64,000 bases of DNA. Origin: Dehalococcoidia bacterium. GTDB lineage: Bacteria; Chloroflexota; Dehalococcoidia; Bin125. The notes below the pieces were generated by a model, which worked only from the letters and a program-made list of their open reading frames with translations, was not told the origin of the DNA and did no database searches. Shown piece by piece: positions 973 to 57,007 of the stretch (position 1 is the stretch's first letter; every line of letters begins with the position of its first letter). The DNA is taken from NCBI GenBank assembly GCA_965116225.1, contig OZ220495.1:2424393-2488392 (forward strand). The letters run 5' to 3'. A program made the position numbers and the translations under genes.

Positions 973-989
973 GCTGCGCCCAAGGCGAC

Positions 990-5713: not shown

Positions 5714-6646
5714 ATGGGTGTGGAACTGTCTCGGATGATTGAGCTGGTCGGTCTGGAAGCGGAACCGACGTTGACCATTGCGCGAGTATCGACGGACGAC
5801 GTACCGGTGACGACCGGGGCGCTGGTCGTCCTGATCGATGGACAGGCGGGCGCGGAAGCACAGGTCGCTCGCGCCTTGCGACATTATCCCGCCGCGCATC
5901 GCGTGCGCGCGATCGGGCGATTCGAGCGAATCGTGGAGACAACAGTTGGCGAGATCGTTGCGAACCCGGCAGATGCGGTGGCGCTAGTTCTTGATCCGAT
6001 CGCACTATTCGATGTCCGCAACGCGCCCGATGGCGTGCGCGGCGTGATGGATCGCTTGCGAGACCCGATCAACGGTTGCCCTTGGGATAACGCGCAAACC
6101 CACGAAAGTTTGCGGCGATACCTGTTGGAAGAGTGTTACGAGGTGCTGGACGCGATCGCCGTTGGCGATCCGGCCGAGTTGTGCGAGGAACTGGGCGATC
6201 TGATGATGCAGGTCGTCCTGCACGCCAAACTGGCCGAACAGGCGGGACAGTTCACGCTCGATGATGTGTCCGAGGGAATCCGGGCGAAACTGGTTCGACG
6301 GCATCCGCACGTCTTTGGAGATGAGACCGCGAATACGCCGAAGCTGATCGAGAGTGCCTGGGAGCGGCTCAAGGCTCGCGAGCGACCACAGCGCGAGTCC
6401 GTTCTGGACGGCGTGCCGCGAACGCTGCCGGCCCTGGCCCGCGCCCAGTCGATCCTCGGACGAGCCGAGCGCAACGGATTCAGCCGCGATGCCGTCGAAA
6501 GCGATGATCTGGGTGAGCGGCTGCTGAACCTGGTGCAGGAGGCGCGAGCGCGTGATCTGTCGGCGGAGGACGCCCTGCGAGACGCCTCGGCCGCCTTCGA
6601 GCGACAGGTCAGGACGTTGGAATCCACGCGCGAAACCGAAGCTTAG
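5714..6646 (+). CDS. mazG: Nucleoside triphosphate pyrophosphohydrolase MazG with ~100-aa N-terminal extension
   Basis: The MazG EExxE motif region (LLEECYEVLDAI...ELGDLMMQVVLHAKLAEQ) and the second MazG repeat are present. The N-terminal ~100 aa resemble a residual YabN-like domain. Confidence 0.8.
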   Translation: MGVELSRMIELVGLEAEPTLTIARVSTDDVPVTTGALVVLIDGQAGAEAQVARALRHYPAAHRVRAIGRFERIVETTVGEIVANPADAVALVLDPIALFDVRNAPDGVRGVMDRLRDPINGCPWDNAQTHESLRRYLLEECYEVLDAIAVGDPAELCEELGDLMMQVVLHAKLAEQAGQFTLDDVSEGIRAKLVRRHPHVFGDETANTPKLIESAWERLKARERPQRESVLDGVPRTLPALARAQSILGRAERNGFSRDAVESDDLGERLLNLVQEARARDLSAEDALRDASAAFERQVRTLESTRETEA

Positions 6647-8913
6647 GCGCGATGCAAATTCGCCGCCGACGCCAACAGCCGTTTGACCCCGGTATCCGAG
6701 AAGCGCACCATCACTTCGGCGTCGCGGCCGATCGAGCGCAGCCCGATCACCACGCCCTCGCCGAAGACCTCGTGCGACACCTCATCGCCCTCCCTGAGTC
6801 CGACTCCGTGCGCCGTGACGGGTTCCAGGTCGAAGGAATCGAAGTCGTCCCAGCGCACAATGCGGTTGCGCGCAGGTCGGACGTCTTCGCCGACGCGCGC
6901 CTGCTCACGTTGGTATCGCTGTAGCAGCGCCTCGGGGATGTCGGCCAGGAATCGCGAGGGCGGGTTGTGTCCGCTGCGACCCTGGAACGCGCGTCGAAAC
7001 GCGTAGAGCAGATGCAGTTCGCGCATCGCCCTGGTCATGCCGACGTAGCAGAGTCGGCGCTCCTCCTCAAGCTGGTTGGGGTCGTCCAATGTGAGCCGAT
7101 GCGGCAGCAGATCCTCCTCCATGCCGACCATGAAGACGACCGGAAACTCCAGTCCCTTGGCTTGGTGCAGCGTGATCAGCGTGACGGCGTCGGGCGGTCC
7201 GTCCGGCAGGTCGTCAACGTCGGCGACTAGCGCAACATCTTCGAGGAATGCGTCCAGCGCCGCGCCCGGCGCGATCTGCGCATAGTTTTCGGTGACCGTG
7301 ACCAGCTCCTGCACGTTTTCCCAACGACTCTCGGCTTCAGCCTCGGAGTCCGCCTGTCGCAATAGCCATTCCCGGTAGCGCGTCTTGATCAGGAGCGCTC
7401 GCAATACGTCGGCGAGCGGTTCTCGGGCTGCCTGGACGCGCGCGTCCTCGATCAGGGAAACGAAGTCCTGCAACGATGCGGCGGCGCGGCGCGAGATGCT
7501 CGGCGGCGTCAGATAGCCGCCGAGCGCATCGGCGTCGATGCCGACGGCTGCCGCGGCGGCCTGGAAGGGCGAGCGGGCGTGCTCGGCCGCCCAGCCGGTC
7601 ACGGTTTCCAGCGTCTTGGTACCGATGCCTCTGGTCGGCACGTTGACGACGCGCCCGAACGCGACCGAATCCGCCGGATTGCGAACCAGTCGGAGATAGG
7701 CTAGCAGGTCGCGGACTTCGCGACGGTCGTAGAAGCGCGTCGCGCCGACAAGACGGTAGGGAATGCCGTGATGGATCAGCGATTCCTCGATCGGCCTGGA
7801 CTGCGCGTTGGTGCGATATAGCACCGCGGCGTCGCCGGATCGCATGGAACCGTCGCGTAGCCCGTGCTCGACCCGGGTGGCGACGTACTCGGCTTCGTCG
7901 TCTTCGCTATAGGCCTCGTGCAGATACGGCAACGGGCCATCGCTGTTGTCGGTGACGAGATGGCGCTTGATGCGATTCGCGGCGCGCTCGATCACCGCAT
8001 TCGCGGCGTCGAGGATCTGTTGCGTCGAGCGGTAGTTCTTGTTGAGCTGAACCTCGGTCGCGTCCGGATGGTCGCGGAGAAAGTAGGCGAGATTGCGGCT
8101 GTCGGCGGATCGCCAGGAGTAGATCGATTGGTCGAGATCGCCGACGACAGTGAGATCGCCGCTGGCCGACCAGGCGCGGGCGAGCTGGTACTGAATCATG
8201 GATGTGTCCTGAAATTCGTCGACCAGGACATGTTCGAATTGGTAATCGTCCTTGTCCCGTATCGCTTCCTGATCGAACAGCTCCAGCGTCCTGAGCAGGA
8301 GGTCATCGAAGTCGAGCGCGTCGGCTTCTCCGAGCCGCGCTCGATAGCGTTCCCACACGCGCCCGACGATTTCGTCGAAGTAGGAACCCGCGGCGGCGAG
8401 GAATTCCTCTGTGGTGATCGCTTCGGATTTGGCGCGAGAGATGCGGCTGAGCAGCTCGCGCGGCGAATAGTCTCTGGTACTGAGCTGGAGTTCCTTGAGC
8501 GCCTCGCGCACGATCTGGATTTGGTCGTCGCCGTCGAAGATGACGAAGTTGCGCGGCACACCGATCCCGTGGCCGTGCTTGCGCAGCATGCGCACGCAGA
8601 TACGGTGAAAGGTGCCGAGCGGCATACCTTTGACATCGGGGCCGATCAACAATTCTAGGCGCGACCGCATCTCTCGTGCGGCGCGATTGGTGAACGTCAC
8701 CGCGAGGATGCGCCAGGGGTCCGTGCCCTGTTCGATTATCCACGTATCCACGATTCGGTGCGTGATCACCCGCGTTTTCCCCGATCCCGGCCCCGCGATC
8801 ACCAACAGCGGGCCGTCCCGATGGGTCACGGCGGCTCGCTGGGCATCGTTGAGGTTGTCGAGATCGAGCGGTACCGCGCCGTCGGCGGGAGAATTGGTCA
8901 TGGCAGCCAGCAT
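6643..8913 (-). CDS. pcrA: ATP-dependent DNA helicase PcrA/UvrD (SF1)
   Basis: Walker A AGPGSGKT, UvrD-family helicase motifs (TFTNRAAREM, DEFQDTS, VGDLDQSIY) and the C-terminal VMVRFSDTGVKRL tail. 756 aa. Converges on and overlaps mazG by 4 nt. Confidence 0.9.
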   Translation of the reverse strand: MLAAMTNSPADGAVPLDLDNLNDAQRAAVTHRDGPLLVIAGPGSGKTRVITHRIVDTWIIEQGTDPWRILAVTFTNRAAREMRSRLELLIGPDVKGMPLGTFHRICVRMLRKHGHGIGVPRNFVIFDGDDQIQIVREALKELQLSTRDYSPRELLSRISRAKSEAITTEEFLAAAGSYFDEIVGRVWERYRARLGEADALDFDDLLLRTLELFDQEAIRDKDDYQFEHVLVDEFQDTSMIQYQLARAWSASGDLTVVGDLDQSIYSWRSADSRNLAYFLRDHPDATEVQLNKNYRSTQQILDAANAVIERAANRIKRHLVTDNSDGPLPYLHEAYSEDDEAEYVATRVEHGLRDGSMRSGDAAVLYRTNAQSRPIEESLIHHGIPYRLVGATRFYDRREVRDLLAYLRLVRNPADSVAFGRVVNVPTRGIGTKTLETVTGWAAEHARSPFQAAAAAVGIDADALGGYLTPPSISRRAAASLQDFVSLIEDARVQAAREPLADVLRALLIKTRYREWLLRQADSEAEAESRWENVQELVTVTENYAQIAPGAALDAFLEDVALVADVDDLPDGPPDAVTLITLHQAKGLEFPVVFMVGMEEDLLPHRLTLDDPNQLEEERRLCYVGMTRAMRELHLLYAFRRAFQGRSGHNPPSRFLADIPEALLQRYQREQARVGEDVRPARNRIVRWDDFDSFDLEPVTAHGVGLREGDEVSHEVFGEGVVIGLRSIGRDAEVMVRFSDTGVKRLLASAANLHRA

Positions 8914-12532: not shown

Positions 12533-13870
12533 CTACGCGCGATTTCGCCGCAGACGCCCGTGTACGTGGACGAATCGAGCAGGCCGTCCAGACATATGGC
12601 AGCGCACCTCTTCGTCGCCGATCAACAGATCGCGGAACGGAACTTGCTGCACGGCGTAGGCTTGCGCGTGTTCGTAGGCGATGTCGTGGGCGCGTTGTCG
12701 GCCGATGCGCTCGCCGAGCGCGAGCATGATGCGCTCGCTCATAATCAGACCGCCGGACAGATCGAGGTTCACTCGCATTCGCTCCGGCTTCACCCCGATG
12801 CCTTCGAACAGGACGATCATCCGGGCAAGGATGTCGCCGAATCAGCTCGACCGATCCGTGGACGGCGCGTTCGGCCATGACGCTGGGGAGCCGTCGGCTT
12901 CGTGCTCGGTGCGCATCGCGTCGAGGGCGAGCGGAAACAGGGTTGTCCAGCTGGGCGGCTGCGGCGCGGAGGTCCTGCGAGAGCTTTGGATTGCGTTTCT
13001 GCGGCATCGTGCTGCTGCCGACGGTGCCGGGCGGGACGAGTTTCTCGATCTCACCGAACTCGGGCTTCAGCAGCATGTACGTCTCGTCGGCGATTTTGTG
13101 GCAGGTCGCGGCGAGCATAGCCAGGATCGCGGTGTAATCAGCATGTATAGTCATGGCTGGTTCGTCCCGGAACCGGCATCGGCGGCAGCCCCAGGTATTC
13201 CGCCATGCCTTGCTGGACGGCGAGCCCGAGCGCGCCGAACGATGCCAGCGTGTCTGCGGCGGTGCCGAGCATAGCGACGAAGATGCGCGGTTCGGCGTCA
13301 TGCAAACGCTCGACGTGGCGATAGATCTCGTCAATCCAGACGCTGATCTTGTAGCCGAAGGTGGCTGGCACGGCGTGTTGACCGTGCGTGCGTCCGGCGC
13401 ACGGATCGTCGGTGTGGTGCTCGGCAACGGCGCGAGCGTCGTGAGCACCTGCCCGATATGTCCAAGCACGATCGCATGCGCCTTGCGCAGCTGCAGCATG
13501 TCGCCGGTCTGAGTGATGTTCTGCGTCGTCGCCCCCCAAGAACGTATCAGCCGACTCCGTCGCCGAGGATTCGATCCAATTCCTAGATCAGCGGTACCAG
13601 CGGATGCGCCGTCACGGTGAGGATCGCCTCGATCCGTGCCATGTCCAGCAGATCGGGCCGACAGTGCTCGGCGATCTAGGCTGCGGCATCGGCGGGAATT
13701 GAATTATGCCCAGGTCCGCCTCCCCGCAGGCGAGCGCGGCTTCCACGCCCAGCCACGCCTGCCAGCGCGCCTCGCGCGTGAGGAGGTCTTGAATGCCAGG
13801 ATCCGGAATGCGCGCCGCGGTGGGTCGGTGTTGCATGAGCGGTTTCGCTTTCTTCCGTGGCAGGCAAAGT
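12533..13870 (-). pseudogene. Fumarate-lyase-family gene (3-carboxy-cis,cis-muconate cycloisomerase / adenylosuccinate lyase-like), at least 3 frameshifts
   Basis: Family segments appear in N-to-C order but in different frames. The N-terminal DLLTREARWQAWLGVEAALA lies in ORF 13612..14061. GRTHGQHAVPATFG lies in ORF 13138..13539. The signature GSSTMPQKRNP lies in ORF 12495..13499. The C-terminal NLDLSGGLIMSERIMLALGE lies in ORF 12533..12820. Confidence 0.6.
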
Positions 13871-19326: not shown

Positions 19327-19444
19327 CCGCGTTCGTTCACGATCCAGCCGTGTTGCCGTGTCTGATTGTCGTATCTTGCCAGTGTCTTGATCGATAGCGC
19401 CTGCAATTCCGCGACCTCAGGCCAGTACGGATCGGAGCGAGAGG

Positions 19445-21961
19445 ATGACGATTATATCATCGGACGCGAACGCGACTCCAGACGCGGATGCCGGACAGGA
19501 GACGCTGCTGGCGGGGGTGAGGGTGCTCGATCTGGCGACGCCGCGGGCGGAGATGGCGGGGCGTGTCTTGGCCGATATGGGTGCGGAGGTGATTAAGGTC
19601 GAACCGCCCACAGGCGTCGAGTCGCGGTGCCTGCCCCCCTTCAATGATGCCGATCCGCAGCGCTCGCTCTATTGGGCCGCTGTCGGGCTGGGCAAACGAA
19701 GCGTGGTGGTCGATCTTGAATCGGAAGCTGGCCGCTCCGACTTCCGAGCCTTGCTGGCGACCGCCGACGTCCTGATCGAGTCCTTCGATCCGGGTGCGAT
19801 GTCGAAGTGGGATCTGGGCTATAACGATCTGGCCCCGCAGCATCCCGACTTGATCTACGTCTCAGTCACGCCGTATGGACAGGACGGTCCGCATGCGCAT
19901 CGACCGGCGACCGATCTGACGATCGAGGCGGCTGGTGGATTGGTGGGTCTGCAAGGGGATGGCGACCGCCCGCCGGTTCCGGTCGGGTTGCCGCAGGCGT
20001 CGATGCATGCCGGCGTACAGGCGGCGGCGGATACGGCGATCGCGCTGCGGGAGCGCGATCTGTCGGGGCTCGGACAGCATCTGGACGTGTCGATGCAGGC
20101 GGCCGTCGTCTGGACGCTGATGAACGCGACCGGATTTCCGCCCAACACCGGCGATGATCCGCCAGGTACCTGCGCGCAACGCAGTGTGGGCGGCGACAGC
20201 CCCAGCGGCGCGGTGATGGGCGTGCATCCCTGCCTCGACGGATATGTCGTTTTCAGCATCGTCCCTGGCGGGCTGGGGCTACGACATTCGGCCAAGGTGC
20301 TGAAGTGGATCGCGGAGGAGGGCGAGCTGATCGGCGGGTTGGCGGGCGTAGATATCGACGAATGGGTGGCGAACGTGGGCAGTCTGGTCATGGAAGATCC
20401 AGCCGAAGCCGGTCGGCAGGTCGCCATTGCGACGGAGAATCTGCACCATTTCGTGGCCAGGCGCACGATGGCGGAGTGCTTTGCCCGCGCCGTCGCCGAC
20501 GGATTCATGATGGCTCCGCTGTACACGATGGAGGACATCGCCAACGACCAGCACTTGGCGGCGCGGGATTTCTGGATCGAGCTCGACGGGTACCGATATC
20601 CCGGACCGTTCGCGAAGCTCTCGCGAACGCCGTTGCAGTTGCGCCGGGCGTCGCCGACGTTGGGACAGGATCAGGAGCTGCTCGCCCAGGTTGGCAGCGC
20701 GCCGACGCGGATCGCGAGGACGCCGAAGTCGTCCAACGGCGTGCGCGGCGCGGACGGCGGCGCGTTGACCGGCGTCAGGATCGCCGACTTCGCCTGGGTC
20801 GGCGTCGGACCGCTGATCTCCAAATCGATGGCGGACCACGGCGCGACCGTGGTGCACATCGAATCGGCGACGCGGCCCGATGTGCTGCGCCTCGCGCCTC
20901 CCTTCAAGGACAACCGGCCCGGCATGGACCGCGCCCAGTTCATGGCCAACTTCAACTCGTCCAAGCTCGGTGTCGCCTTGCGGCTCGATACCGAGCAGGG
21001 GCGCGATTACGCGCGACAGTTGATCGACTGGGCCGATGTGGTGGTTGAGTCGTTCACGCCGGGAACGATGAAACAGTTCGGTTTCGACTATGACACGCTG
21101 AGCAAGGATCGTCCGGAGTTGATCATGCTGAGCACGTGTTTGCGTGGACAGACGGGACCGGAATCGAGCTATCCCGGATTCGGACTGCAGGGTGCCTGCC
21201 TGTCGGGTCTGCATCGCATCACCGGATGGCCGGATCGGCAACCGTCCGGCACCTGGGGCGCGTACACCGACTTCATCAATCCTCGGTTCGGCTCAGGCGT
21301 GCTCGCAGCGGCGATTCGATATCGCGATCGGACCGGGAATGGTCAGTACATCGATCTGGCGCAGAGCGAGGCGGGGATTCACTTCGTCGCTCCGCTGCTG
21401 CTTGATTACCTGGAGAATGGGCGGATCGCGCAAGCGCCCGGCCACGATTCTCTGTACGGCGTCCCGAACGGGGTGTTCCGCGTCGGCGACGGCGAACGCT
21501 ATGTGGCCATCGCGACGGAGACCGCCCAGCAGTGGCGCGCGCTGCGAGACGCAACCGGTCTGGAGCATTGGTCGGGAACGGCATTCGACGACCTGTCAGT
21601 AAGGATTGGCGCCAAAGCGGAGATCGAAGCCATCATCGCCGAGTGGTGCGCCCCGCAGACCGCCGATGCTGTGGTCGAGCGGCTCACCGGGGCCGGTGTC
21701 CCCGCGTCGCTGGTGGAATGGCCCTCAGACCTCTATCAGGATGCCCAGCTCGCGCATCGGAACTTCTTCGTCAGCTTGCACCACTCAGTGATGGGTCCCA
21801 CGCCGTATGACGGACTCGTAACCAGGTTCTCAGGCGCCACGGCGCGCTTGCGTCGGGCGGCGCCGGCGATCGGCGAGCACACGCACTACGTCCTGTCGGA
21901 AATGCTGCAGGCGTTGGACGAGGAGATCACGGACGCGCTTGTTGCGGGCGCGCTTCAGTAG
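19445..21961 (+). CDS. Tandem-fused double CaiB/BaiF-family CoA-transferase
   Basis: 838 aa with two complete family III CoA-transferase units (GVRVLDLATPRAEMAGRVLADMGAEVIKVE... and LTGVRIADFAWVGVGPLISKSMADHGATVVHIE...). GAGAGG RBS before ATG. Confidence 0.85.
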   Translation: MTIISSDANATPDADAGQETLLAGVRVLDLATPRAEMAGRVLADMGAEVIKVEPPTGVESRCLPPFNDADPQRSLYWAAVGLGKRSVVVDLESEAGRSDFRALLATADVLIESFDPGAMSKWDLGYNDLAPQHPDLIYVSVTPYGQDGPHAHRPATDLTIEAAGGLVGLQGDGDRPPVPVGLPQASMHAGVQAAADTAIALRERDLSGLGQHLDVSMQAAVVWTLMNATGFPPNTGDDPPGTCAQRSVGGDSPSGAVMGVHPCLDGYVVFSIVPGGLGLRHSAKVLKWIAEEGELIGGLAGVDIDEWVANVGSLVMEDPAEAGRQVAIATENLHHFVARRTMAECFARAVADGFMMAPLYTMEDIANDQHLAARDFWIELDGYRYPGPFAKLSRTPLQLRRASPTLGQDQELLAQVGSAPTRIARTPKSSNGVRGADGGALTGVRIADFAWVGVGPLISKSMADHGATVVHIESATRPDVLRLAPPFKDNRPGMDRAQFMANFNSSKLGVALRLDTEQGRDYARQLIDWADVVVESFTPGTMKQFGFDYDTLSKDRPELIMLSTCLRGQTGPESSYPGFGLQGACLSGLHRITGWPDRQPSGTWGAYTDFINPRFGSGVLAAAIRYRDRTGNGQYIDLAQSEAGIHFVAPLLLDYLENGRIAQAPGHDSLYGVPNGVFRVGDGERYVAIATETAQQWRALRDATGLEHWSGTAFDDLSVRIGAKAEIEAIIAEWCAPQTADAVVERLTGAGVPASLVEWPSDLYQDAQLAHRNFFVSLHHSVMGPTPYDGLVTRFSGATARLRRAAPAIGEHTHYVLSEMLQALDEEITDALVAGALQ

Positions 21962-40718: not shown

Positions 40719-41384
40719 CTATCCGGGGGGGGGCAACGCTTCCGTCTGTTGTTGTTCCGGCACCGCTTCATCGGACTGCGGAGGGATGATCAACGCTTGC
40801 CCAATCTGCAGGTTACCCGCCTGCGTCTCCGTGAGACGATTGTACGACATGAGCGCGTCCCAGGTGAATCCGTGCGCGAAGGCGATATCGGCGAGCGTGT
40901 CGCCGGCCTGGACAATGTAGATCTCTCCGGGCGGCTGCTCAGGCGGGTCGTCAGGTTCCGCGCTATCGGCATTCTGCGGCGCAGCCGCCCCGCAGCCGCC
41001 CTCGCGGATCGGAATCCGAAGTTCGTCACCGATGTCGAGTGTGTTGATGTCGACGATCGTGTTGAGGCGCTGAATCTCCTCGAACGTAACGCAGAATCGC
41101 GCCGCGATGGTGGCGAGGCTGTCTCCGGGCTGCACCACGTATGTCGTCTCCGTAACCGGTGCCTGCTCGACAGTGATCTCATCCTCGAACAGATACGGGG
41201 CCGGCAGCGGATCGGGCAACGCTTCGACCGGGATGTCCTCGGCATTTGCGCTCGTGCTTGAGGGTTCGACCGCGCCGGGTACGTCGGCAGGGGGCGGGTT
41301 TTCGTTCCCGCAGGCGACCACAACCGCCGCGCCGATCACGGCGACGAGGACGATCAGTCCTCTGGCGCGAGAGCGGAGGTACAC
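40719..41384 (-). CDS. LysM-domain lipoprotein (two LysM repeats)
   Basis: Two LysM motifs (YVVQPGDSLATIA..., YIVQAGDTLADIA...). Lipoprotein signal MYLRSRARGLIVLVAVIGAAVVVAC from GTG at 41384. The alternative ATG at 41426 would overlap the M28 gene. The C-terminus runs through a C9 tract. Confidence 0.7.
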   Translation of the reverse strand: MYLRSRARGLIVLVAVIGAAVVVACGNENPPPADVPGAVEPSSTSANAEDIPVEALPDPLPAPYLFEDEITVEQAPVTETTYVVQPGDSLATIAARFCVTFEEIQRLNTIVDINTLDIGDELRIPIREGGCGAAAPQNADSAEPDDPPEQPPGEIYIVQAGDTLADIAFAHGFTWDALMSYNRLTETQAGNLQIGQALIIPPQSDEAVPEQQQTEALPPPG

Positions 41385-41407
41385 GTGCCTAGTGTCGCAC
41401 GATATGG

Positions 41408-42889
41408 CTAGTTTGGATTCACGCACGCGGTGTTGGGGATGACCGGACTGCCGGCCTGTAGCAGAAGGCAGGAGAGGATGCTATGGCTAAGTGTGGCGAT
41501 GTCGGCGTAGACTTCGTGATCGATGTTGTCGAGATTATCGAGCGGGGTGTGCATGATCCCACCCAGAGGAAACGGGAAGACCACGGGTACGCCGGCCCAG
41601 TCGAAGTTCAAGTGATCGGAGCCAAGCATCATAGGCAGCGAACCGCGGCTCGCGTCGATCTGTAGCGCTTCGGATACCGCGTTGACCATCGCGCCGAGTT
41701 CGCCGGATGCGATGATCCGGTACGGTGCGTTTCCGTCGCCGATCGCGTCGAGATTGAGCATGGCGGTAACCAGTTCCAGCGCGCCGGAGGCTTGCATCTC
41801 CTGAACGAAGAACTCGGAGCCATGTAGTCCGAGCTCTTCAGCTCCGAAGCCGACGAAGCAGAGGTCGGCCGCGGCCGGATGCGCGGACCATGCCTCGGCG
41901 AAGGCAAGCATGAGCGCGGTGCCTGATGCGTTGTCGTTGGCGCCGCTGACTTCGGGCACGGTGTCGTAATGTCCGCCAACAACCACGAGACAGCGTCCAC
42001 CTAGCTTTCGGGCGATCACGTTGCGGGACACGCCAGTCGCGGGGGATGCGTTGAGAATGACGGCTTCGACATCTGCCACGGCAAGACGGGCGCGAAGGTC
42101 GTCTCCGTCTTGCTTGATCATCTGCAGAACGGGAATCTTGCTGGAATACGCGCCCAAGCTGCCGCCCAGCGATTCGCTCGCGAGGCGGTTGACGATGATC
42201 AGCGCGACTGCGCCCGCGGCCTCCGCATGCGACGCCTTGACGTGGAACTCGATCTCGCCACGATCGACGATGGCGATCCTGCCTCGTACTGCGGCAGCCT
42301 CAAAGTCTGCGGGCTGGCCTAATCCAGGCACATCGACGAGTCTGGCTCTGATACCGTGATCCGCCGAACCGGGAAAGCGAAATCCGATTGCACTGTAACC
42401 AGCATCGAGATCGACGCGGCTGACTACGCCCTGGACGCTATAGGTGAACGGCTGGATCTCGACCTCGTAGCCGAGTTGCTTGAAGATCTGGGCGAGATAC
42501 TCGGCCGCCGCTGCTTCCTCCTCTGAGCCGCTGGCGCGTGATCCCAGCTCGCCGGCGAGCTGGTCGAGGTACCTGCGGGCGGACTCGACGCTGAACGAAG
42601 GCGTGGCCGCCGCTTCAGCCGATGCTTGACGCGCTGGAGTTGCGGGCGCGGGTTGTCGCTGCCCCACTTGAGTCCCGGCTTGCGTCGAGGTTTGCGGGTT
42701 GGTTTGGGATCGACCCAACTCGACAGGTTGCACATCGGGCTGGTGGGTAACCGCAGGGGTTGACTGCGCGTCCCGCTCAGCCGGCTCGACCTGTTCGACG
42801 GGTTGGGCAACCGGTTGCGGAACGTCCGATGAGCAGGAAAGCGCCAGCGCGGCTGTGACGGCGAACGTAGGCAGGAGTCGGCGAAGCAC
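41408..42889 (-). CDS. M28-family zinc aminopeptidase with PA domain, lipoprotein
   Basis: GGHYDTVPEVSGANDNASGTALMLAFAEAW and ...GAEELGLHGS are M28 metal ligands. Lipobox LALSC. Pro/Gln-rich linker. GTG start 7 nt after the upstream gene's stop. The listed ORF to 43096 overlaps that upstream gene. Confidence 0.75.
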   Translation of the reverse strand: MLRRLLPTFAVTAALALSCSSDVPQPVAQPVEQVEPAERDAQSTPAVTHQPDVQPVELGRSQTNPQTSTQAGTQVGQRQPAPATPARQASAEAAATPSFSVESARRYLDQLAGELGSRASGSEEEAAAAEYLAQIFKQLGYEVEIQPFTYSVQGVVSRVDLDAGYSAIGFRFPGSADHGIRARLVDVPGLGQPADFEAAAVRGRIAIVDRGEIEFHVKASHAEAAGAVALIIVNRLASESLGGSLGAYSSKIPVLQMIKQDGDDLRARLAVADVEAVILNASPATGVSRNVIARKLGGRCLVVVGGHYDTVPEVSGANDNASGTALMLAFAEAWSAHPAAADLCFVGFGAEELGLHGSEFFVQEMQASGALELVTAMLNLDAIGDGNAPYRIIASGELGAMVNAVSEALQIDASRGSLPMMLGSDHLNFDWAGVPVVFPFPLGGIMHTPLDNLDNIDHEVYADIATLSHSILSCLLLQAGSPVIPNTACVNPN

Positions 42890-51588: not shown

Positions 51589-52605
51589 ATGGAACAGCGA
51601 CGATTCGGCAGCAGCGACCTAGTGGCATCGGCAGTGGGCTTCGGCACCTGGGAGATGAGCGGTAACGCGTACGGTCACATCGACCGCGACGAGGCGGTGC
51701 GGGCCGTGAACATGGCGATTGACCGCGGGATCACTCTGTTCGACACAGCCGAGGTCTATGGGCCCAATCATTCCGAGGAGCTGCTGGCGCGCGGTATAGG
51801 CAGCCGTCGCCACGAGGTGGTGCTGGTCACCAAAGTCGGCTTCGACTACGACGAGACGCCGCGCGTGATCGGCCTCAACTCGAAGAAGGACCACATCATC
51901 GCGCACACCGAAGGTTGCCTGCGACGACTCAATGCAGACTACGTGGACTTGATGCTGATCCACTGGCCCGACCACGACACGCCGTTCGCGGAGACGATGG
52001 AGGGTCTGGAGCAACTGAAGCGGGACGGCAAGATTCTTCACTATGGCGTCTCGAACTTCAATATCGACATGATGGAGGAGTGTCAGCGGCATGGCACGAT
52101 CGTCGCCAACCAGGTCGGTTATCACATGTTCGACCGACGGATGGAATCGCGCGTCCTGCCTTGGTGCATGGCGAACGGTGTAGGTTTCATGTCCTACGGC
52201 TCGCTCGCTTTCGGGCTGTTGACCGGCGCGTTCGCCCCCGATCACCAATTCGACGAGAGCGACTGGCGACGCAACGGCACCGCATTCAATCTGCCCTTGT
52301 TCGAGTCGGATCGCTTCCGTCAAGAGGTTGAGATCGCCAGCCGCCTGGGCGAGTTGGCCGACGGCTACGGCAAGACGGTTGCCCAGCTCGGCATCGCCTG
52401 GGTGCTCGACCATCCCGGCGTTAGCTGCGCGTTGGTCGGAATGCGCAACGAGCGCGAGCTCGAAGAGAATGTTGCTGCAACCGACTGGAAGCTGACCGAG
52501 GACATCCGCAGCGCCGTCAACCAGATCTTCGACGACGTCGGCATCCCGACCTATCAGAACACCCCACAGGTCGTCCACGTCGCCAGAGCGACCGGTCGGC
52601 GGTAG
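51589..52605 (+). CDS. Aldo/keto reductase
   Basis: AKR pattern (GFGTWEMSG...DTAEVYG...LIHWPD...). Confidence 0.9.
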   Translation: MEQRRFGSSDLVASAVGFGTWEMSGNAYGHIDRDEAVRAVNMAIDRGITLFDTAEVYGPNHSEELLARGIGSRRHEVVLVTKVGFDYDETPRVIGLNSKKDHIIAHTEGCLRRLNADYVDLMLIHWPDHDTPFAETMEGLEQLKRDGKILHYGVSNFNIDMMEECQRHGTIVANQVGYHMFDRRMESRVLPWCMANGVGFMSYGSLAFGLLTGAFAPDHQFDESDWRRNGTAFNLPLFESDRFRQEVEIASRLGELADGYGKTVAQLGIAWVLDHPGVSCALVGMRNERELEENVAATDWKLTEDIRSAVNQIFDDVGIPTYQNTPQVVHVARATGRR

Positions 52606-52614
52606 AGGACTGCC

Positions 52615-55503
52615 TTACTCCTCTGCCTCGGCTCGTTCCCGATTGAGTTCGAGCAGGCGCGCCAGGACCTCATCGTCCGCGATGTCCGCACTCCAGCCGT
52701 AGGCGGCGCAGACAGCCTCATCCAATTCGCCATGTACGTCGATCAACCAGTCAGGTCGGCGGTTATACAGCTCGGTCATCGTGCGATCTTGCAGGATGGC
52801 TGAATTGACGTTGACGCCGATCGGATTGAGCCAGGCCTCGCGACGTTCCTTCAGCTTCTGCGCCACCGAAGCGATGGCGCGCGCGTGAGCGCGCAGCTCG
52901 GCGTCGAGGCCGCTCGACGCCATGGTCGAGCGGCCAGGGGAACGGAAATGTGTTGAAGCAGAGAGTATGGGTATAGCGAGGGCTGACGCCGAGTCGGGAT
53001 CCCATCGCCAGGGCCCACGTTTCGTGGATTCGTGAGTGAAGGACACCAAAGGTGTAGTCGTCTGCTCTGGCGATAGCGACGACTGTCGCGTCCGGAGTGA
53101 CCTTTGCCTCCAGCCAGACGAAGAATTGGTGCTTCGATGTTAGCGGAGCGGCGATGAATCGGCTCAGTGGGCGAATGGCCGATCGCATCCCAGGTCGCCA
53201 TGACTCGTGTATCCACCAGTTCTCACGTAGCGACGCTGCATCCAGCGATTCCCGATACGGCTTGACGTGTGTTCGTAGGTGTTCCCACGGCTGCTCGTAC
53301 ATGGCAGCCTGCTTGGGATCCATGTCCTGGCCGAAATCAATGATGTAGGCACCCTTGGGTCGTTGAGCGAGGTCATGGGCATTGACGAACGGAAACACGA
53401 CATCAGCATTTGGGCGTCCGTTGACGTTGATGGGTTGGCCTAGCATCTGCTCGCCTTGTTCACGGGTCACATCGAACTGGCCGTTTCTGATGTCGCCCTG
53501 GAACGCGATGCCCATATTCTCGGCCAGCTCGATCGCCGACGCCATATACGCCGAGCCGGCTGTGAGGTCGGGGTTAATGAACGCTACCGATTCTCCGTCA
53601 AGCGTGAGTTCGGTTTCGCTGCCATCGTCCTGTCCGACAATTGAAATACGTACCCGGGCACCGTCATTGGTCCACTCCTGATCGGCATATGCCATGAATA
53701 TCTGTCCCGACCCGGCAATGCGCTCTAGCACACCACGGCTATAGACACCTCGGATGTTTTGTGTAGCCAACAGTCCGGCTCGGCGCGATATCCCCCCCCC
53801 CCATTGATCTGGCGTCGGGCGAGTTCATGCCAGTAGGTGCATAAGTCGACACGTCCATCAAGAGCGCCCCGATAGGCGCGGCGCAGGCGGTCGACATATC
53901 GGGTATCAAGCTGCTGACGCATCAGTTTCATGCCGAGGAAGGGCGGATTGCCGATGATAAATTCTGCCTCCGGCCATGTTGCGGGAACTGGATTACCGTC
54001 GTCGTCTTGATCGAGAACCGCGTTGCGGCATTCAATCTGATCGATCCGGCCGAGGATCGGTTCGCCAAGGCGCTGTAATCCATGCTGCGTGGTCCACTGG
54101 ATATCGCCGATCCAGAGCGATAGTCGGGTGAGGTCGACCGCGAACTGGTCGATATCGATTCCTAGCATGTTGGCGGGGCCGATACGGCGCTGCATGCCGT
54201 TGATGCCGTGCGCGTCATGCGCCCAGCCAATCAACTCCTGCTCAAGTTGTTTGAGCTCGCGCATGGCGACGTACAGGAAGTTGCCTGAGCCGCAGGCAGG
54301 GTCGAGCACGCGCACGCTGGCGAGACGATCGTGAAACGCGCGAATGCGCCCTTCGGGCGAATCGGGATCTGGCTCGTCGAGACTGAGCGCGCCGATCTTG
54401 CCATAGACGGGCGTGGCACCGGAGGTGCCGGAATCCGGCTGGAGCGCCTGCCTCAGATCGGCGAACTCGCGCCGCAGCGGACGCAGGAGTACAGGTTCGA
54501 TCACGAGCATGATGGTGTCGGGATCGGTGTAGTGGGCGCCGGTTTGGGTGCGTCGCTCGGGGTCTAGACCGCGTTCGAAGAGCGTCCCAAAGATGGCGGG
54601 GTCGATGCGCGACCAGTCTAGCTTGCTGGTTTCCAGCAGGGTATTGACCGGATCCCCGGTCAGCGCAAACGTCTCGTCTGCCGCTGACTTGTCGAACAGG
54701 CCGCCGTTGAACCAAGGCACAGGAAGCGGTCCAAAGTCGGGGATCTCCGACGATGACATCGCCCCGAACACTGCCGAGATCTGCGCTTGAGTTCGTTCCG
54801 GACGGTGGCGAAGGTTCTCAAGCGTGATCGTTAATGGCCTGTGGATATCACCGTGATCGTTGCGAAACAGATCGATGCTCTCTGCGAAGAAGGTAAACAC
54901 AATACGGTTCAGAAAGCGGGCGACGACATTGGGGTCGTGGTCGAGCGCGCGCAGCGCCTCTGCGACTTCGCCGAATTTAGCCGCCGCGGTTTCGGTGATG
55001 TAGCGAGGATCACGATCCGGGTGCAGCGGATGTTCGCGGTCTGCGTAAGCAGGCTCAAGGACATCCTGGAGAATCCGGCAGTAGTAGGTCGGGCTCTCCT
55101 TCAGATCCTTGAGGGTGAACCGAATCGTCCGCGCCGGCGCGTTCGTGAACGTTGTGTGAATCTCAAACGTCCGCATGTCGCAGACGACCAGAATCGGTGG
55201 ATTGCCCAGACCTTCCTGATAGCCGCGCAGCTGGCCGTACGCGTCGCGGAAGTTCTTGCCGGGACTCTTATATTCCCAGGCGAAGCATTGTTCTTTCCAC
55301 ACATCCGCCTTGCCAACGTATCCGCCGTCTGCATCATGCACGGCGCGCTCAAAGGTGTATGTCTTGGGATCGTGCGGTGGATTGACCTCGAGCATTACGC
55401 ACAGATCGCGAAAGTGCGTCTGAGCGCCCTGAGCTTCGTTGAGTCCGGACGCATTCCACTTTGAGTAGAACTCAGCGACGCTCAGAGTCGGCTCGGACGG
55501 CAT
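52615..55503 (-). pseudogene. MmeI-family Type IIL restriction-modification enzyme (nuclease, gamma-class N6-A MTase and TRD in one chain), split into three frames
   Basis: ORF 53725..55503 carries the N-terminal D..EYK nuclease motif (GKADVWKEQCFAWEYK), MTase motif I VLDPACGSGNFL and motif IV NPPFLG. ORF 52763..53770 continues the TRD through RYTHTLCFNTFPFP. ORF 52615..53049 carries the family C-terminus (LYNRRPDWLIDVHGELDEAVCAAYGW). Frame breaks lie at the G11 tract (53792-53802) and near 52925. Confidence 0.75.
53792..53802 (-). repeat. G11 homopolymer (C11 on + strand) inside the MmeI-like gene at its first frame break
   Basis: Direct reading. Encodes NGGGGY in frame 1. Inserting one G joins frame 1 to the ORF 52763..53770 frame with no intervening stop. 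Confidence 0.9.
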
Positions 55504-55510
55504 TGCGGTA

Positions 55511-57007
55511 TTACTCCGACAGCGCCGCCGTCAACAGCTCGGAGGCTTGTTGGGGGTTTGCCTGACCTCGACTGTGACGCATGACCTGGCCGACGAGGTA
55601 CTTCAGGGCGGCTTCCTTACCGCTGCGGTAGTCGGCCGCGGCGTCGGGATTGTCGCTGATCACCCGGCTGATGATCGGGGCGAGCGCATCTGCGCCGCTG
55701 ATCTGCATGAGTCCTCTCACCTTGACAATATCGGTGGGGTCATCGCCGGTTTCGTACATCGTCTCGAAGACGGACCTGGCCTGGCTGCGCGAGATATCGC
55801 CGCCCGCGATCAGGCCGACCAGCTCGGCGAGCTGCGCGGGACGGATTGGCTGCTCATCCAGATCGGGGTGGGCGGGGTCTTTGTTGATCTGCGCGAACAG
55901 GTCGCCGGTGATCCAATTTGCGGCCTCTCGGGCGGTGGTGGTGTCCCTGAGCGCGTCGACGGTCTGATCGAAGTAGTTGGCGCGCGATGGTTCTTCGGTC
56001 AGCAGGTTGGCTTCAAATTCGCCGAGGCCGTAGCGGGACTGAAACCGCGCATAACGTTCCTGCGGAAGTTCGGGTAGTTGACGGCGAATCGTTTCCACCT
56101 CCGCGGCTGAGATCGAGAGCGGCGGCAGGTCGGGCTCGGGGAAGTAGCGGTAGTCGTGCGCTGCTTCCTTGTAGCGCTGCGAGAGCGTGATTTGCCGTTC
56201 CTCGTCCCAGCCCCGTGTCTCCTGCGCAATCGCGCTGCCCGCGCGTAGCAGCTCGGCCTGGCGCTTGACCTCGTATTCGAGAGCGCTGTGGACGCCCCGG
56301 AACGAGTTCATGTTCTTGATCTCGACCTTGGCGCCGAGCTCGCCTGAGCCGACCGGGCGCAACGAGACGTTGGCATCGCAACGGAAGGAGCCTTTCTCCA
56401 TGTCGGCGTTGGAGACGCTAAGATAGCGGAGAATCTGTCGCAGCTGCACAAGATAGGCTCGCGCTTCGTCCGCGGAGCGCATGTCGGGCTCGGACACGAT
56501 TTCCATAAGCGGCACACCGGAGCGATTGACGTCGACCAGCGAGAAGCGCTCGCCGGCCTCGTTCTCGCGGTGCAACAATCGGGCCGTGTCCTCTTCGAGA
56601 TGGACACGGGTGATGCCGATTCGACGCTTGCCCAGCGAGTCCGTCTCGACATCCATCCATCCGCCTTCGGAGAGCGGCATGTCGTACTGCGAGATCTGGT
56701 AGCCCTTCATCAGATCCGGGTAGGGATAGTTCTTGCGGTCGAACTTGGATAGTTCGGGGATCGACATATTGAGCGCGAGCGCCGTGCGGATCGTCCACTC
56801 GACCGCCGTGCGGTTGATCACGGGTAACGTGCCGGGCATCCCCAGGCAGAGGGGGCAGACGTAGGTGTTGGGCTCAGCGGAGGCGTAGTTGGCCGGGCAG
56901 CGGCAGAACATCTTGCTCTGTGTGTGGAGCTGGCAATGAACTTCGAGTCCGATCACGGTTTCGTACTCGATGGCGAGATCGGGCGCGGGTGAGGCCTTCG
57001 TGCTCAT
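55511..57007 (-). CDS. gatB: Asp-tRNA(Asn)/Glu-tRNA(Gln) amidotransferase subunit B
   Basis: IGLEVHCQLHTQSKMFCRCP and the C-terminal YqeY-like tail. Internal ATG (MSTKAS) at 57007 is preferred over the listed 57097. Confidence 0.9.
   Translation of the reverse strand: MSTKASPAPDLAIEYETVIGLEVHCQLHTQSKMFCRCPANYASAEPNTYVCPLCLGMPGTLPVINRTAVEWTIRTALALNMSIPELSKFDRKNYPYPDLMKGYQISQYDMPLSEGGWMDVETDSLGKRRIGITRVHLEEDTARLLHRENEAGERFSLVDVNRSGVPLMEIVSEPDMRSADEARAYLVQLRQILRYLSVSNADMEKGSFRCDANVSLRPVGSGELGAKVEIKNMNSFRGVHSALEYEVKRQAELLRAGSAIAQETRGWDEERQITLSQRYKEAAHDYRYFPEPDLPPLSISAAEVETIRRQLPELPQERYARFQSRYGLGEFEANLLTEEPSRANYFDQTVDALRDTTTAREAANWITGDLFAQINKDPAHPDLDEQPIRPAQLAELVGLIAGGDISRSQARSVFETMYETGDDPTDIVKVRGLMQISGADALAPIISRVISDNPDAAADYRSGKEAALKYLVGQVMRHSRGQANPQQASELLTAALSE

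What the first reader, a model, noticed from the sequence alone, without database searches (positions are those of the whole stretch)
52615..55503. Solitary MmeI-family Type IIL RM gene broken at a G11 homopolymer: candidate phase-variable restriction-modification
A single ~940-aa MmeI-like polypeptide is recoverable across three overlapping minus-strand ORFs: an N-terminal D..EYK nuclease, a gamma-class MTase with VLDPACGSGNFL and NPPFLG, a TRD with ...FETFPFP-like motif, and the conserved C-terminus. The first break sits exactly in an 11-G run (53792-53802). I verified by hand that adding one G (G12) reads AAT GGG GGG GGG GGG ATA TCG ... TTG GCT ACA CAA AAC ATC CGA, the frame of ORF 52763..53770, with no stop in between. 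That is the classic slipped-strand ON/OFF architecture of phase-variable RM systems, which is seldom reported in high-GC genomes. The gene sits alone between an aldo/keto reductase and gatB. Because no separate MTase or BREX partners are present, this is a self-contained RM enzyme rather than a PglX-type component.
Basis: partly seen in the sequence, partly recalled or inferred. Interest (0 to 1): 0.75.

Follow-up and report, generated by a model that had tools for sequence, protein, structure and literature searches.

The report
Broken MmeI-type restriction gene with G-run
This is a single-protein restriction-modification gene of the MmeI type, broken once inside an unusual run of 11 G's and once more by a stray extra C outside any repeat. 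It is therefore most likely a recently dead gene, not a working on/off switch.

Summary
A 962-codon MmeI-family (Type IIL/IIG) gene lies on the minus strand at 52615-55503, split into three ORFs. The first break sits in a G11 run (53792-53802), the longest homopolymer in the window and absent from 100 shuffles. Adding one G joins ORF1 to ORF2.

The switch reading is only partly supported.
- **Second break.** It is one extra C (CC at 52924-52925), outside any repeat. No tract length can restore the full protein. G12 or G9 would give about 913 aa without the C-terminal helical bundle. Two native MmeI-family enzymes with lesions in that C-terminal region (DraRI, ApyPI) were inactive until repaired.
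- **Tract distribution.** It is private to this allele. None of 166 homologous loci or 120 homologous proteins has it, and the linker it lengthens is otherwise fixed in length.
- **Other genes.** About 46 other ORFs in the window look intact. The one other broken gene is an old, multiply damaged pseudogene, so random assembly indels are unlikely, though not excluded.

The gene is a long-term resident directly after gatB in at least seven related long-read assemblies, probably Dehalococcoidia. Its specificity half is swapped between near-identical strains, and one sister copy carries an IS insertion.

Verdict: a young pseudogene of a known kind that carries a hypermutable tract. Interest is low to moderate.

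The parts
53725..55503 (-). ORF1, 592 aa. It holds the N-terminal PD-ExK nuclease (D67 at 55303-55305, E77 at 55273-55275, K79 at 55267-55269) and the helical spacer. It also holds the first part of the gamma-class m6A methyltransferase: motif I VLDPACGSGNFL at 54274-54309 and motif IV NPPFLG at 53932-53949. It ends in 21 out-of-frame residues after the G tract.
   Evidence: P0019 is this exact 592-aa product, called on a 2.6-Mb contig.
53792..53802 (-). G11 homopolymer (C11 on the + strand), the site of the first frameshift. G12 or G9 would be in frame. It would encode extra glycines in a low-confidence loop between helix 554-567 and strand 575-581 of the methyltransferase domain.
   Evidence: 0 of 100 shuffles; loop position; absent from orthologs.
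52926..53791 (-). Coding part of ORF2 (listed ORF 52763..53770, frame shifted by one). It holds the rest of the methyltransferase domain and the target recognition domain, ending at FNTFPFP (52937-52957) and WPLD.
   Evidence: MmeI_TRD at residues 797-856; tblastn HSP 53797-52925.
52924..52925 (-). Second frameshift. CC stands where the closest ortholog has a single C (GACCATGG against GA-CACGG). This is a 1-nt insertion, not in a repeat of three or more bases.
52615..52923 (-). Coding part of ORF3 (listed ORF 52615..53049, same frame as ORF1). It is the conserved C-terminal helical bundle, about 100 aa, 72% identical to the ortholog. It cannot be reached from ORF2 without removing one base.
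   Evidence: HSP 52920-52621; helices 868-959.
55511..57007 (-). gatB (Asp/Glu-tRNA amidotransferase B subunit). Its stop lies 7 nt upstream of the RM start codon. The same arrangement is seen in relatives, so co-transcription is inferred.
51589..52605 (+). Aldo/keto reductase, convergent with the RM gene, with 9 nt between the two stop codons. It is the conserved downstream boundary of the locus.

Best explanation
The locus is a recently inactivated copy (a young pseudogene) of an MmeI-family Type IIL restriction-modification enzyme.

**What an intact copy does (known for the family, inferred here)**
- One 962-aa protein binds an asymmetric site through its target recognition domain.
- It methylates one adenine on one strand with its gamma-class methyltransferase.
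- It cuts unmodified DNA about 20 bp away with its N-terminal PD-ExK nuclease.

**The two lesions in this genome**
1. A 1-nt shortfall in a G tract. The tract grew from an ancestral GGG glycine codon to G11 in a surface loop of the methyltransferase domain.
2. A single extra C just after the FPFPWP motif, which cuts off the C-terminal helical bundle.

**Consequences**
- As assembled, translation stops after 592 aa. That product lacks the target recognition domain, so neither methylation nor restriction is expected.
- The G tract is long enough to slip often (inferred). However, slipping to G12 or G9 only extends the product to about 913 aa without the C-terminal bundle, which is predicted to be inactive.
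- The tract may have worked as an on/off switch before the second lesion, or it may be a by-product of relaxed selection. Either way it cannot now restore the enzyme.

The gene is dispensable and turns over in this lineage. Sister genomes keep intact copies at the same site, exchange the specificity half by recombination, and in one case carry an IS insertion.
For: **Family identity**
- Pfam finds MmeI_N, MmeI_hel, MmeI_Mtase and MmeI_TRD.
- PADLOC REase_MTase_IIG matches residues 8-961 at E=1.8e-233.
- MmeI 5HR4 is the only PDB sequence hit (E=7e-43) and the top fold hit (E=8e-30, 16 orders of magnitude ahead of the next).
- D67/E77/K79, motif I and motif IV are invariant in the alignment.

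**Two lesions**
- Frame analysis and the +1 G repair are.
- The DNA alignment to the ortholog shows only two indels that are not multiples of 3: the G-tract site and one C at 52925.

**The lesions are probably real rather than assembly noise**
- 16 neighbouring genes align to the ortholog proteins as single HSPs; most are full-length, and DnaG is cut by the window end.
- 30 further ORFs were screened against Pfam. The large multi-domain enzymes (PEP carboxylase, aconitase, carboxyltransferase, fumarase, amidase, UvrD) give complete domain matches, and no other ORF shows a domain split across adjacent frames. Only the lyase-like ORF at 12536-12841 is truncated.
- That lyase-like gene has many frameshifts plus in-frame stops, so it is a genuine old pseudogene.
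- Damage is therefore clustered in two dispensable genes rather than scattered.

**Recent inactivation**
- There are no in-frame stops within any segment.
- The segments are 78%, 55% and 72% identical to the ortholog.
- Only 5 private changes fall at otherwise invariant sites.

**The C-terminal region matters**
- DraRI (stop at codon 841) and ApyPI (frameshift after R886) were inactive natively and active after repair. DraRI's host DNA was unmethylated (PMC2731913).
- That paper describes three natively disrupted MmeI-family genes in all.

**Turnover in the lineage**
- The same gatB-RM-AKR-CofD synteny holds in L001, L002, L082, L083 and L084 with intact genes.
- L165 has an IS5-like insertion with terminal inverted repeats and a CTAG target duplication.
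- A 1.25-kb specificity block is 45-63% identical between genomes that are otherwise 95-100% identical.

**The tract is allele-specific**
- None of 166 loci has a G/C run of 8 or more inside the gene.
- The linker length is 7 in 97 of the 98 homologs in which the flanking motif could be found (of 120). It would be 9 here with G12. Only this ORF has GGGG.
Against: - No reads are available, so neither lesion is verified at read level.
- The second lesion is a C-to-CC length change. The same class of error appears in essential genes of sibling long-read MAG contigs: GG to G in the sigma-70 gene of L083 and C to CC in gatB of L166. An assembly artefact is therefore possible.
- An 11-base homopolymer is at the limit of what long-read consensus resolves. 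Sereika et al. 2022 report correct consensus for lengths under 11 and expect runs of 10 or more to stay problematic (PMC9262707). The true length could be 12.
- Growth of GGG into G11 in a permissive loop, with in-frame lengths G9 and G12 one or two steps away, is what an evolved contingency tract looks like.
- Both pieces after the breaks are still well conserved. That fits a functional gene as well as a very young pseudogene.
- Whether a protein lacking the C-terminal bundle is inactive rests on two relatives, not on a test of this protein.
Confidence: 0.6

Rival explanations
1. The gene is an otherwise intact, functional Type IIL RM gene caught in the OFF phase of a G-tract contingency switch (G11 OFF, G12 or G9 ON). 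The second frameshift would be an assembly error.
For: - G11 is an extreme outlier in the window.
- It lies in a loop that should tolerate extra glycines.
- +1 G restores the frame through the whole target recognition domain.
- All catalytic motifs are intact.
- PolyG-driven ON/OFF switching is established for the Type IIG gene cj0031 (G9 ON, G10 OFF), and there too the tract occurs only in some alleles (PMC4889913).
- C-to-CC and GG-to-G consensus errors occur in sibling assemblies.
Against: - It needs an error at exactly this gene, while about 46 other ORFs in the window show no such error. On my rough Poisson estimate from zero errors in about 58 kb, the chance of a random error in the remaining 2.9 kb is about 0.05, and at most 0.15.
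- The tract is absent from every relative.
- No tract-length variants could be found.
- Real inactivation of this gene happens in the lineage (L165).
Confidence: 0.12
2. Both frameshifts are consensus errors of a long-read metagenome assembly. The real gene is intact and ON, with a true tract of G12 (or G9). Whether it phase-varies stays open.
For: - Relatives come from long-read MAG assemblies. I infer this from contig names such as ctg6947_128x_c and ctg21605c; the sequencing platform is not stated.
- Those assemblies show 1-nt homopolymer-length errors in essential genes.
- Homopolymers of 10 or more remain problematic in long-read consensus (PMC9262707).
- Both lesions are homopolymer-length changes (11 against 12, and 2 against 1).
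Against: - No other such error was seen elsewhere in the 64 kb.
- Two independent errors falling in one 2.9-kb non-essential gene is improbable, even allowing that the G tract is an error hot spot.
- The source assembly and its coverage are unknown. Look-ups for window proteins returned nothing.
Confidence: 0.1
3. Both lesions are real, but the roughly 913-aa form made at G12 or G9 is active without the C-terminal bundle. The G tract would then still toggle a working enzyme. This would resemble the short forms of H. pylori JHP1272 and HP1353-54, where the downstream reading-frame state changes the C-terminal end of an active Type IIG enzyme.
For: - In H. pylori, two frame switches in one MmeI-like Type IIG gene give an ON/OFF switch plus a specificity change. 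The shorter variant is active (PMC3936762).
- The nuclease, methyltransferase and whole target recognition domain up to FPFPWP would be present.
Against: - In H. pylori both switches are homopolymers. The extra piece there is an additional recognition domain, not the conserved C-terminal bundle.
- The missing bundle here is conserved in all 21 aligned homologs.
- Lesions in this region inactivate DraRI and ApyPI.
- The out-of-frame tail is a 53-residue Arg-rich sequence with no homology.
Confidence: 0.08
4. Recoding rescues the gene. RNA polymerase slippage on the G11/C11 template would supply the missing base in a share of transcripts, and a ribosomal +1 shift would bypass the extra C.
For: Long homopolymers promote transcriptional slippage (general knowledge, not tested here). 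The two lesions are of opposite sign, so ORF1 and ORF3 share a frame.
Against: - The second site (CUC GAC CAU GGC) has no slippery sequence and no in-frame stop. I saw no obvious stimulatory element by eye; no structure or motif search was run.
- No relative has either feature.
- Two independent low-efficiency events would give negligible full-length protein.
Confidence: 0.03

Closest known systems
MmeI family of Type IIL RM enzymes (MmeI, PDB 5HR4), including the natively disrupted members NmeAIII, DraRI and ApyPI (Morgan et al. 2009, PMC2731913; Callahan et al. 2016, PMC4833311)
   Same: - It has the same five-part layout: PD-ExK nuclease with D-x9-E-x-K, helical spacer, gamma-class m6A methyltransferase (DPACGxGNFL, NPPF), target recognition domain ending at FPFP, and C-terminal helices.
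- It is a single gene with no partner methyltransferase.
- Like three characterised members, the native gene is disrupted by small lesions yet looks readily repairable.
   Different: - It is only about 21% identical to MmeI itself.
- It carries two lesions rather than one, and one of them lies in a long homopolymer, which was not reported for those three.
- Recognition site, cleavage distance and one-strand modification are untested.
- Its host is an uncultured high-GC lineage, probably Dehalococcoidia.
Campylobacter jejuni cj0031 (phase-variable Type IIG RM; Anjum et al. 2016, PMC4889913)
   Same: - A polyG tract inside a fused nuclease-methyltransferase gene splits it into two ORFs.
- A one-base change toggles the frame.
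- The tract is present in only some alleles.
- The target recognition domain region is highly variable between strains.
   Different: - cj0031 switching was shown directly (G9 ON, G10 OFF colonies) along with methylation and phage restriction. Nothing is shown here.
- cj0031 belongs to a different Type IIG subfamily (Eco57I/TaqI_C-like) and to a low-GC genome with 12-29 such tracts.
- This gene also has a second, non-repeat frameshift.
Helicobacter pylori JHP1272 / HP1353-HP1354 (Type IIG/IIL-like with two homopolymer switches; Krebes et al. 2014, PMC3936762)
   Same: It has two frame breaks in one MmeI-like gene. The first is ON/OFF. The second lies near the end of the target recognition domain and decides what follows it.
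   Different: - In H. pylori both breaks are homopolymeric repeats. The second adds an extra recognition domain that changes specificity.
- Here the second break is a CC dinucleotide, and it removes a conserved domain.
BREX PglX and DISARM DrmMI methyltransferases
   Same: They share a related gamma-class methyltransferase and target recognition module.
   Different: - Matches are partial. NCBIfam PglX scores are 21-31 bits against cut-offs of 400-900, and DrmMI models match only the C-terminal half.
- There are no BREX or DISARM partner genes nearby.
- An N-terminal PD-ExK nuclease is present.

Membership tests
MmeI family (Type IIL RM enzymes) | N-terminal PD-ExK nuclease with residues aligned to MmeI D70, E80 and K82 (criterion used in PMC2731913) | tested here: met
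   D67-x9-E77-Y-K79 are invariant across 22 homologs. Pfam MmeI_N covers residues 10-185. The MmeI alignment covers this region.
MmeI family (Type IIL RM enzymes) | Similarity along the whole length of MmeI: helical spacer, gamma-class m6A methyltransferase (motif I, then NPPF), and a target recognition domain ending at FPFP | tested here: met
   Pfam MmeI_hel, MmeI_Mtase and MmeI_TRD hit above their cut-offs. PADLOC REase_MTase_IIG matches end to end. 5HR4 is the only PDB sequence hit and the top Foldseek hit.
MmeI family (Type IIL RM enzymes) | Conserved C-terminal helical region after FPFP | tested here: inconclusive
   The sequence is present in ORF3, 72% identical to the ortholog and predicted helical. 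However, Pfam MmeI_C gave no hit at E<=0.01, and the region is out of frame with the target recognition domain in this genome.
MmeI family (Type IIL RM enzymes) | One uninterrupted ORF encoding the whole enzyme | tested here: not met
   There are two frameshifts, at 53792-53802 and at 52924-52925. It qualifies as a family member by descent, not as a functional enzyme as assembled.
MmeI family (Type IIL RM enzymes) | Modification of one strand only is enough for host protection, with no partner methyltransferase | not testable with these tools
   No methyltransferase gene is adjacent. A separate N6_N4_Mtase-HNH gene lies 50 kb away at 921-2558. Methylation itself cannot be tested here.
MmeI family (Type IIL RM enzymes) | Cleavage about 20/18 nt from an asymmetric site | not testable with these tools
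   This needs biochemistry.
Phase-variable (contingency) locus driven by a simple sequence repeat | A hypermutable repeat inside the reading frame or promoter | tested here: met
   G11 lies inside the ORF. Known polyG switches work at G9 and G10. The tract is an extreme outlier in the window.
Phase-variable (contingency) locus driven by a simple sequence repeat | Repeat-length change alone toggles between a full-length functional product and a truncated one | tested here: not met
   G12 or G9 reads only to a stop at 52763-52765, giving about 913 aa without the C-terminal bundle. A second, non-repeat frameshift blocks the rest.
Phase-variable (contingency) locus driven by a simple sequence repeat | Repeat-length heterogeneity within a population or between isolates | not testable with these tools
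   No reads are available. No second copy of this strain turned up among the proteins or the contigs searched.
BREX PglX / DISARM DrmMI | Full-length match to the family model, and partner genes (brxA/B/C, pglZ, brxL; or drmA/B/C) in the neighbourhood | tested here: not met
   NCBIfam PglX scores are 21-31 bits against cut-offs of 400-900. The neighbours are gatB, an aldo/keto reductase, CofD, SecG, Fmt, RlmN and others.

The most novel reading that the evidence does not exclude
The second frameshift is an assembly error, and the G tract is a working contingency switch. On this reading, an uncultured high-GC Dehalococcoidia-like lineage keeps a Type IIL RM gene as a fixed resident directly after gatB. 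It diversifies that gene by swapping the specificity half between strains. In this strain it has evolved slipped-strand ON/OFF control, a strategy so far documented mainly in host-adapted pathogens.
Probability: 0.12. Interest if true: 0.55.

Novelty: new member of a known kind. Interest (0 to 1): 0.3.

Why it matters
As it stands this is one more naturally disrupted MmeI-family gene. Such genes have been known since 2009, and polyG switches in fused nuclease-methyltransferase genes are well described.

Three modest points of value remain.
- **A caution for annotation.** A G tract at a frame break is not enough to call phase variation. The rest of the gene must be intact. Homopolymer breaks in long-read MAGs also need read-level checking.
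- **Locus dynamics.** In this uncultured lineage the RM gene stays at one chromosomal site after gatB, while its specificity module is replaced between near-identical strains. Copies are also repeatedly knocked out, by an IS element or by frameshifts. That is a compact natural example of RM turnover outside pathogens.
- **A practical resource.** The intact orthologs, with several different target recognition domains on a common scaffold, could be mined for new MmeI-type specificities.

If reads showed tract-length heterogeneity and no second frameshift, it would be a rare case of slipped-strand control in environmental Chloroflexota.

Tried and rejected
- **Finding the source genome or other copies of the strain.**
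  - Exact look-ups of ORF1 and of the aldo/keto reductase returned nothing.
  - Cluster look-up gave no names or accessions.
  - A scan of JGI metagenomes with the tract flanks and a variable gap found nothing.
  - A protein-guided scan of the same collection found only relatives at 47% identity or less.
- **A conserved tract.** I considered that the tract might be a family feature. No relative has it.
- **BREX or DISARM membership.** Rejected on scores and on gene context.
- **A generally error-ridden assembly.** I checked 16 neighbours by synteny and 30 more ORFs by Pfam. The only other broken gene is an old pseudogene with stop codons. Random error is therefore unlikely but not excluded, because sibling assemblies do show this class of error.
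- **Signs of long-term decay.** Private substitutions at invariant sites number 5. That is slightly above close relatives (0-3) and not decisive.
- **Programmed frameshifting at the second site.** I saw no slippery motif or in-frame stop by eye in the sequence. No dedicated search was run.
Full report
**1. The observation**

The minus strand of 52615-55503 carries three ORFs: 55503..53725 (592 aa), 53770..52763 and 53049..52615. ORF1 and ORF3 share one frame and ORF2 is in another.

A run of exactly 11 G occupies 53792-53802 on the minus strand. It is the longest homopolymer in the window. The only other run of 7 or more is a G9 at 40725-40733. G/C run counts fall 33, 4, 0, 0 for lengths 5 to 8. 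No G11 appears in 100 dinucleotide-preserving shuffles.

Inserting one G reads ...YWHELARRQINGGGGISRRAGLLATQNIRG... into ORF2 without a stop. Removing two G's (G9) is also in frame.

The second break was located by aligning the DNA with the closest ortholog. All indels are multiples of three except two: the tract site, and a single extra C at 52924-52925 (GACCATGG against GA-CACGG). That C lies four codons after FPFPWP. Repairing both gives a 962-aa protein.

**2. What the gene is**

- The repaired protein hits Pfam MmeI_N, MmeI_hel, MmeI_Mtase and MmeI_TRD.
- It matches the PADLOC Type IIG model PDLC03627 from residue 8 to 961 at E=1.8e-233.
- MmeI (5HR4) is its only PDB sequence match (E=7e-43).
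- An AlphaFold model (mean pLDDT 75.6) finds 5HR4 as the top fold match at E=8e-30. The next hit is at 8e-14.
- The nuclease triad D67...E77-Y-K79 has the D-x9-E-x-K spacing of MmeI D70/E80/K82 (PMC2731913, PMC4833311). Motif I DPACGSGNFLY and motif IV NPPF are invariant among 22 homologs.
- BREX PglX models score 21-31 bits against cut-offs of 400-900. The neighbours are housekeeping genes.

**3. Context and relatives**

More than 100 intact homologs of 944-986 aa exist, the best at 70% identity.

In five related genomes the intact ortholog sits at exactly the same place (L001, L002, L082, L083, L084). It starts a few nucleotides after the gatB stop (7 nt in the window and L001), is convergent with an aldo/keto reductase, and is followed by CofD, SecG, Fmt and RlmN. 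Two further assemblies, L165 and L166, have the same layout with a disrupted copy. These are 2.5-3.3 Mb long-read MAG contigs. One carries the title 'Dehalococcoidia bacterium'.

Flanking proteins are 79-96% identical between the window and L001. The RM protein is 78% identical in its N-terminal 576 residues, 55% in the target recognition region and 72% at the C-terminus.

The specificity half behaves as an exchangeable module.
- L001 and L082 are 95-100% identical in DNA across the locus. The exception is a 1.25-kb block (about aa 520-930) at 45-63%.
- P0027 and P0033 show the same pattern, and P0008 and P0005 show the converse.

In L165, a strain 98-99% identical to L083 in the flanks, the gene is split by an IS5-like element. 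The element has terminal inverted repeats and a CTAG target duplication. That is an unambiguous natural knockout.

**4. The tract**

Orthologs have a single GGG or GGC glycine codon at this position, with no run longer than five.

The linker between the conserved I and the AGLLAT strand is 7 residues in 97 of the 98 homologs in which the motif could be found. With G12 it would be 9. Among 120 homologs plus this ORF, only this ORF contains GGGG. None of 166 homologous loci has a G/C run of 8 or more inside the gene.

In the model, the tract-encoded residues (569-571, pLDDT below 50) lie in a loop between helix 554-567 and strand 575-581.

The tract is therefore an allele-specific expansion in a permissive loop. 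That is compatible with a contingency tract. It is equally compatible with stepwise slippage in a gene whose loss is tolerated.

**5. Why the switch model fails as assembled**

Frame 0 after the tract has six stops before ORF3, so ORF2 cannot be bypassed. With G12 or G9, translation runs through the target recognition domain but then reads 53 out-of-frame residues to a stop at 52763-52765. The whole C-terminal helical bundle (helices 868-959) is lost.

Morgan et al. 2009 report that DraRI (stop at codon 841) and ApyPI (frameshift after R886) are inactive as found and become active when repaired. D. radiodurans DNA is not protected. By analogy the 913-aa form should be inactive. This step is an inference.

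**6. Real lesion or assembly error?**

For an error:
- Sibling long-read assemblies contain 1-nt homopolymer-length errors in essential genes. Examples are GG to G in the sigma-70 gene of L083 and C to CC in gatB of L166.
- The window's second lesion is the same class.
- An 11-mer is at the resolution limit of long-read consensus (PMC9262707).

Against an error:
- 16 syntenic genes align to the L001 proteins as single HSPs. Most are full-length, and DnaG is cut by the window end.
- 30 further ORFs show no domain split across frames, and the large enzymes give complete Pfam domain matches.
- The one other damaged gene, a lyase-family gene at about 12536-13870, has pieces in all three frames plus in-frame stops. 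It is an old, genuine pseudogene.

With zero errors in about 58 kb of other coding sequence, I estimate the chance of a random error in this gene outside the tract at about 0.05, and at most about 0.15. Real inactivation of this very gene is documented in a sister strain.

I therefore put about 0.6 on a genuine young pseudogene, whatever the exact tract length. Smaller weights go to a truncated-but-active enzyme and to recoding.

**7. Comparison with known systems**

- Natively disrupted but repairable MmeI-family genes are described in PMC2731913. Its authors suggested that populations may hold active and inactive forms.
- PolyG ON/OFF switching of a fused Type IIG enzyme is demonstrated for cj0031, where the tract also occurs only in some alleles (PMC4889913).
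- H. pylori JHP1272 and HP1353-54 have two homopolymer switches in one MmeI-like gene (PMC3936762).

The present locus differs in three ways: its host lineage, a second break that is not in a repeat, and the absence of any functional data.

**8. Verdict**

This is a new member of a known kind. Interest is 0.3. Most of that rests on the locus dynamics (fixed site, module swapping, recurrent knockouts) and on the small remaining chance that the tract is a live switch.

Noticed in passing
window 12536-13870 (-): A lyase-family gene (Pfam ADSL_C on 12536-12841) is a heavily decayed pseudogene. Recognisable pieces lie in all three frames, with several in-frame stops. It shows that this genome carries genuine old pseudogenes.
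   Followed up: partly
window 40725-40733 (+): This is the second long homopolymer in the window: G9 on the + strand, C9 on the coding strand. It forms the last codons (...EALPPPG-stop) of a LysM-domain protein gene (40722-41480, -), just upstream of a carboxyltransferase gene. A length change would alter only the C-terminal tail. The five close relatives have no run of 8 or more in about 82 kb.
   Followed up: partly
window 921-2558 (+): A 546-aa ORF combines an N6_N4 DNA methylase domain with a C-terminal HNH nuclease motif. It is a second RM-like gene in the window, unrelated to the MmeI-type gene.
   Followed up: no
L001 11560-12790 vs L082; L165 5568-7604 vs L083: Pairs of strains with 95-100% identical flanks differ by wholesale replacement of the methyltransferase C-part, target recognition domain and C-terminal module of the RM gene. 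That block is only 45-63% identical. The breakpoints lie near NPPFLG and about 100 nt before the stop. This is specificity-cassette exchange at a fixed locus.
   Followed up: partly
L165 ~6036-6900: The orthologous RM gene of a sister genome is interrupted by an IS5-like element (DUF4096 plus DDE_Tnp_1 ORFs). It has terminal inverted repeats GGCCTGTTCACTCTA / TAGAGTGAACAGGCC and a CTAG duplication.
   Followed up: yes
L083 ~757; L166 ~3224: Essential genes in sibling long-read MAG contigs carry 1-nt homopolymer-length frameshifts. The sigma-70 gene has GG to G and gatB has C to CC. These are probable assembly errors. It is a warning for any frameshift call in these assemblies.
   Followed up: yes
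window 19391-21958 (+): An 856-codon stop-to-stop ORF contains two CoA-transferase family III stretches. It is either a tandem fusion or two genes in one frame. I did not examine it.
   Followed up: no
L163 1201-1212 and 2070-2077; L032 5178-5187: G12, G8 and G10 runs lie upstream of, not inside, distant MmeI-family homologs. Their gene context was not examined.
   Followed up: no
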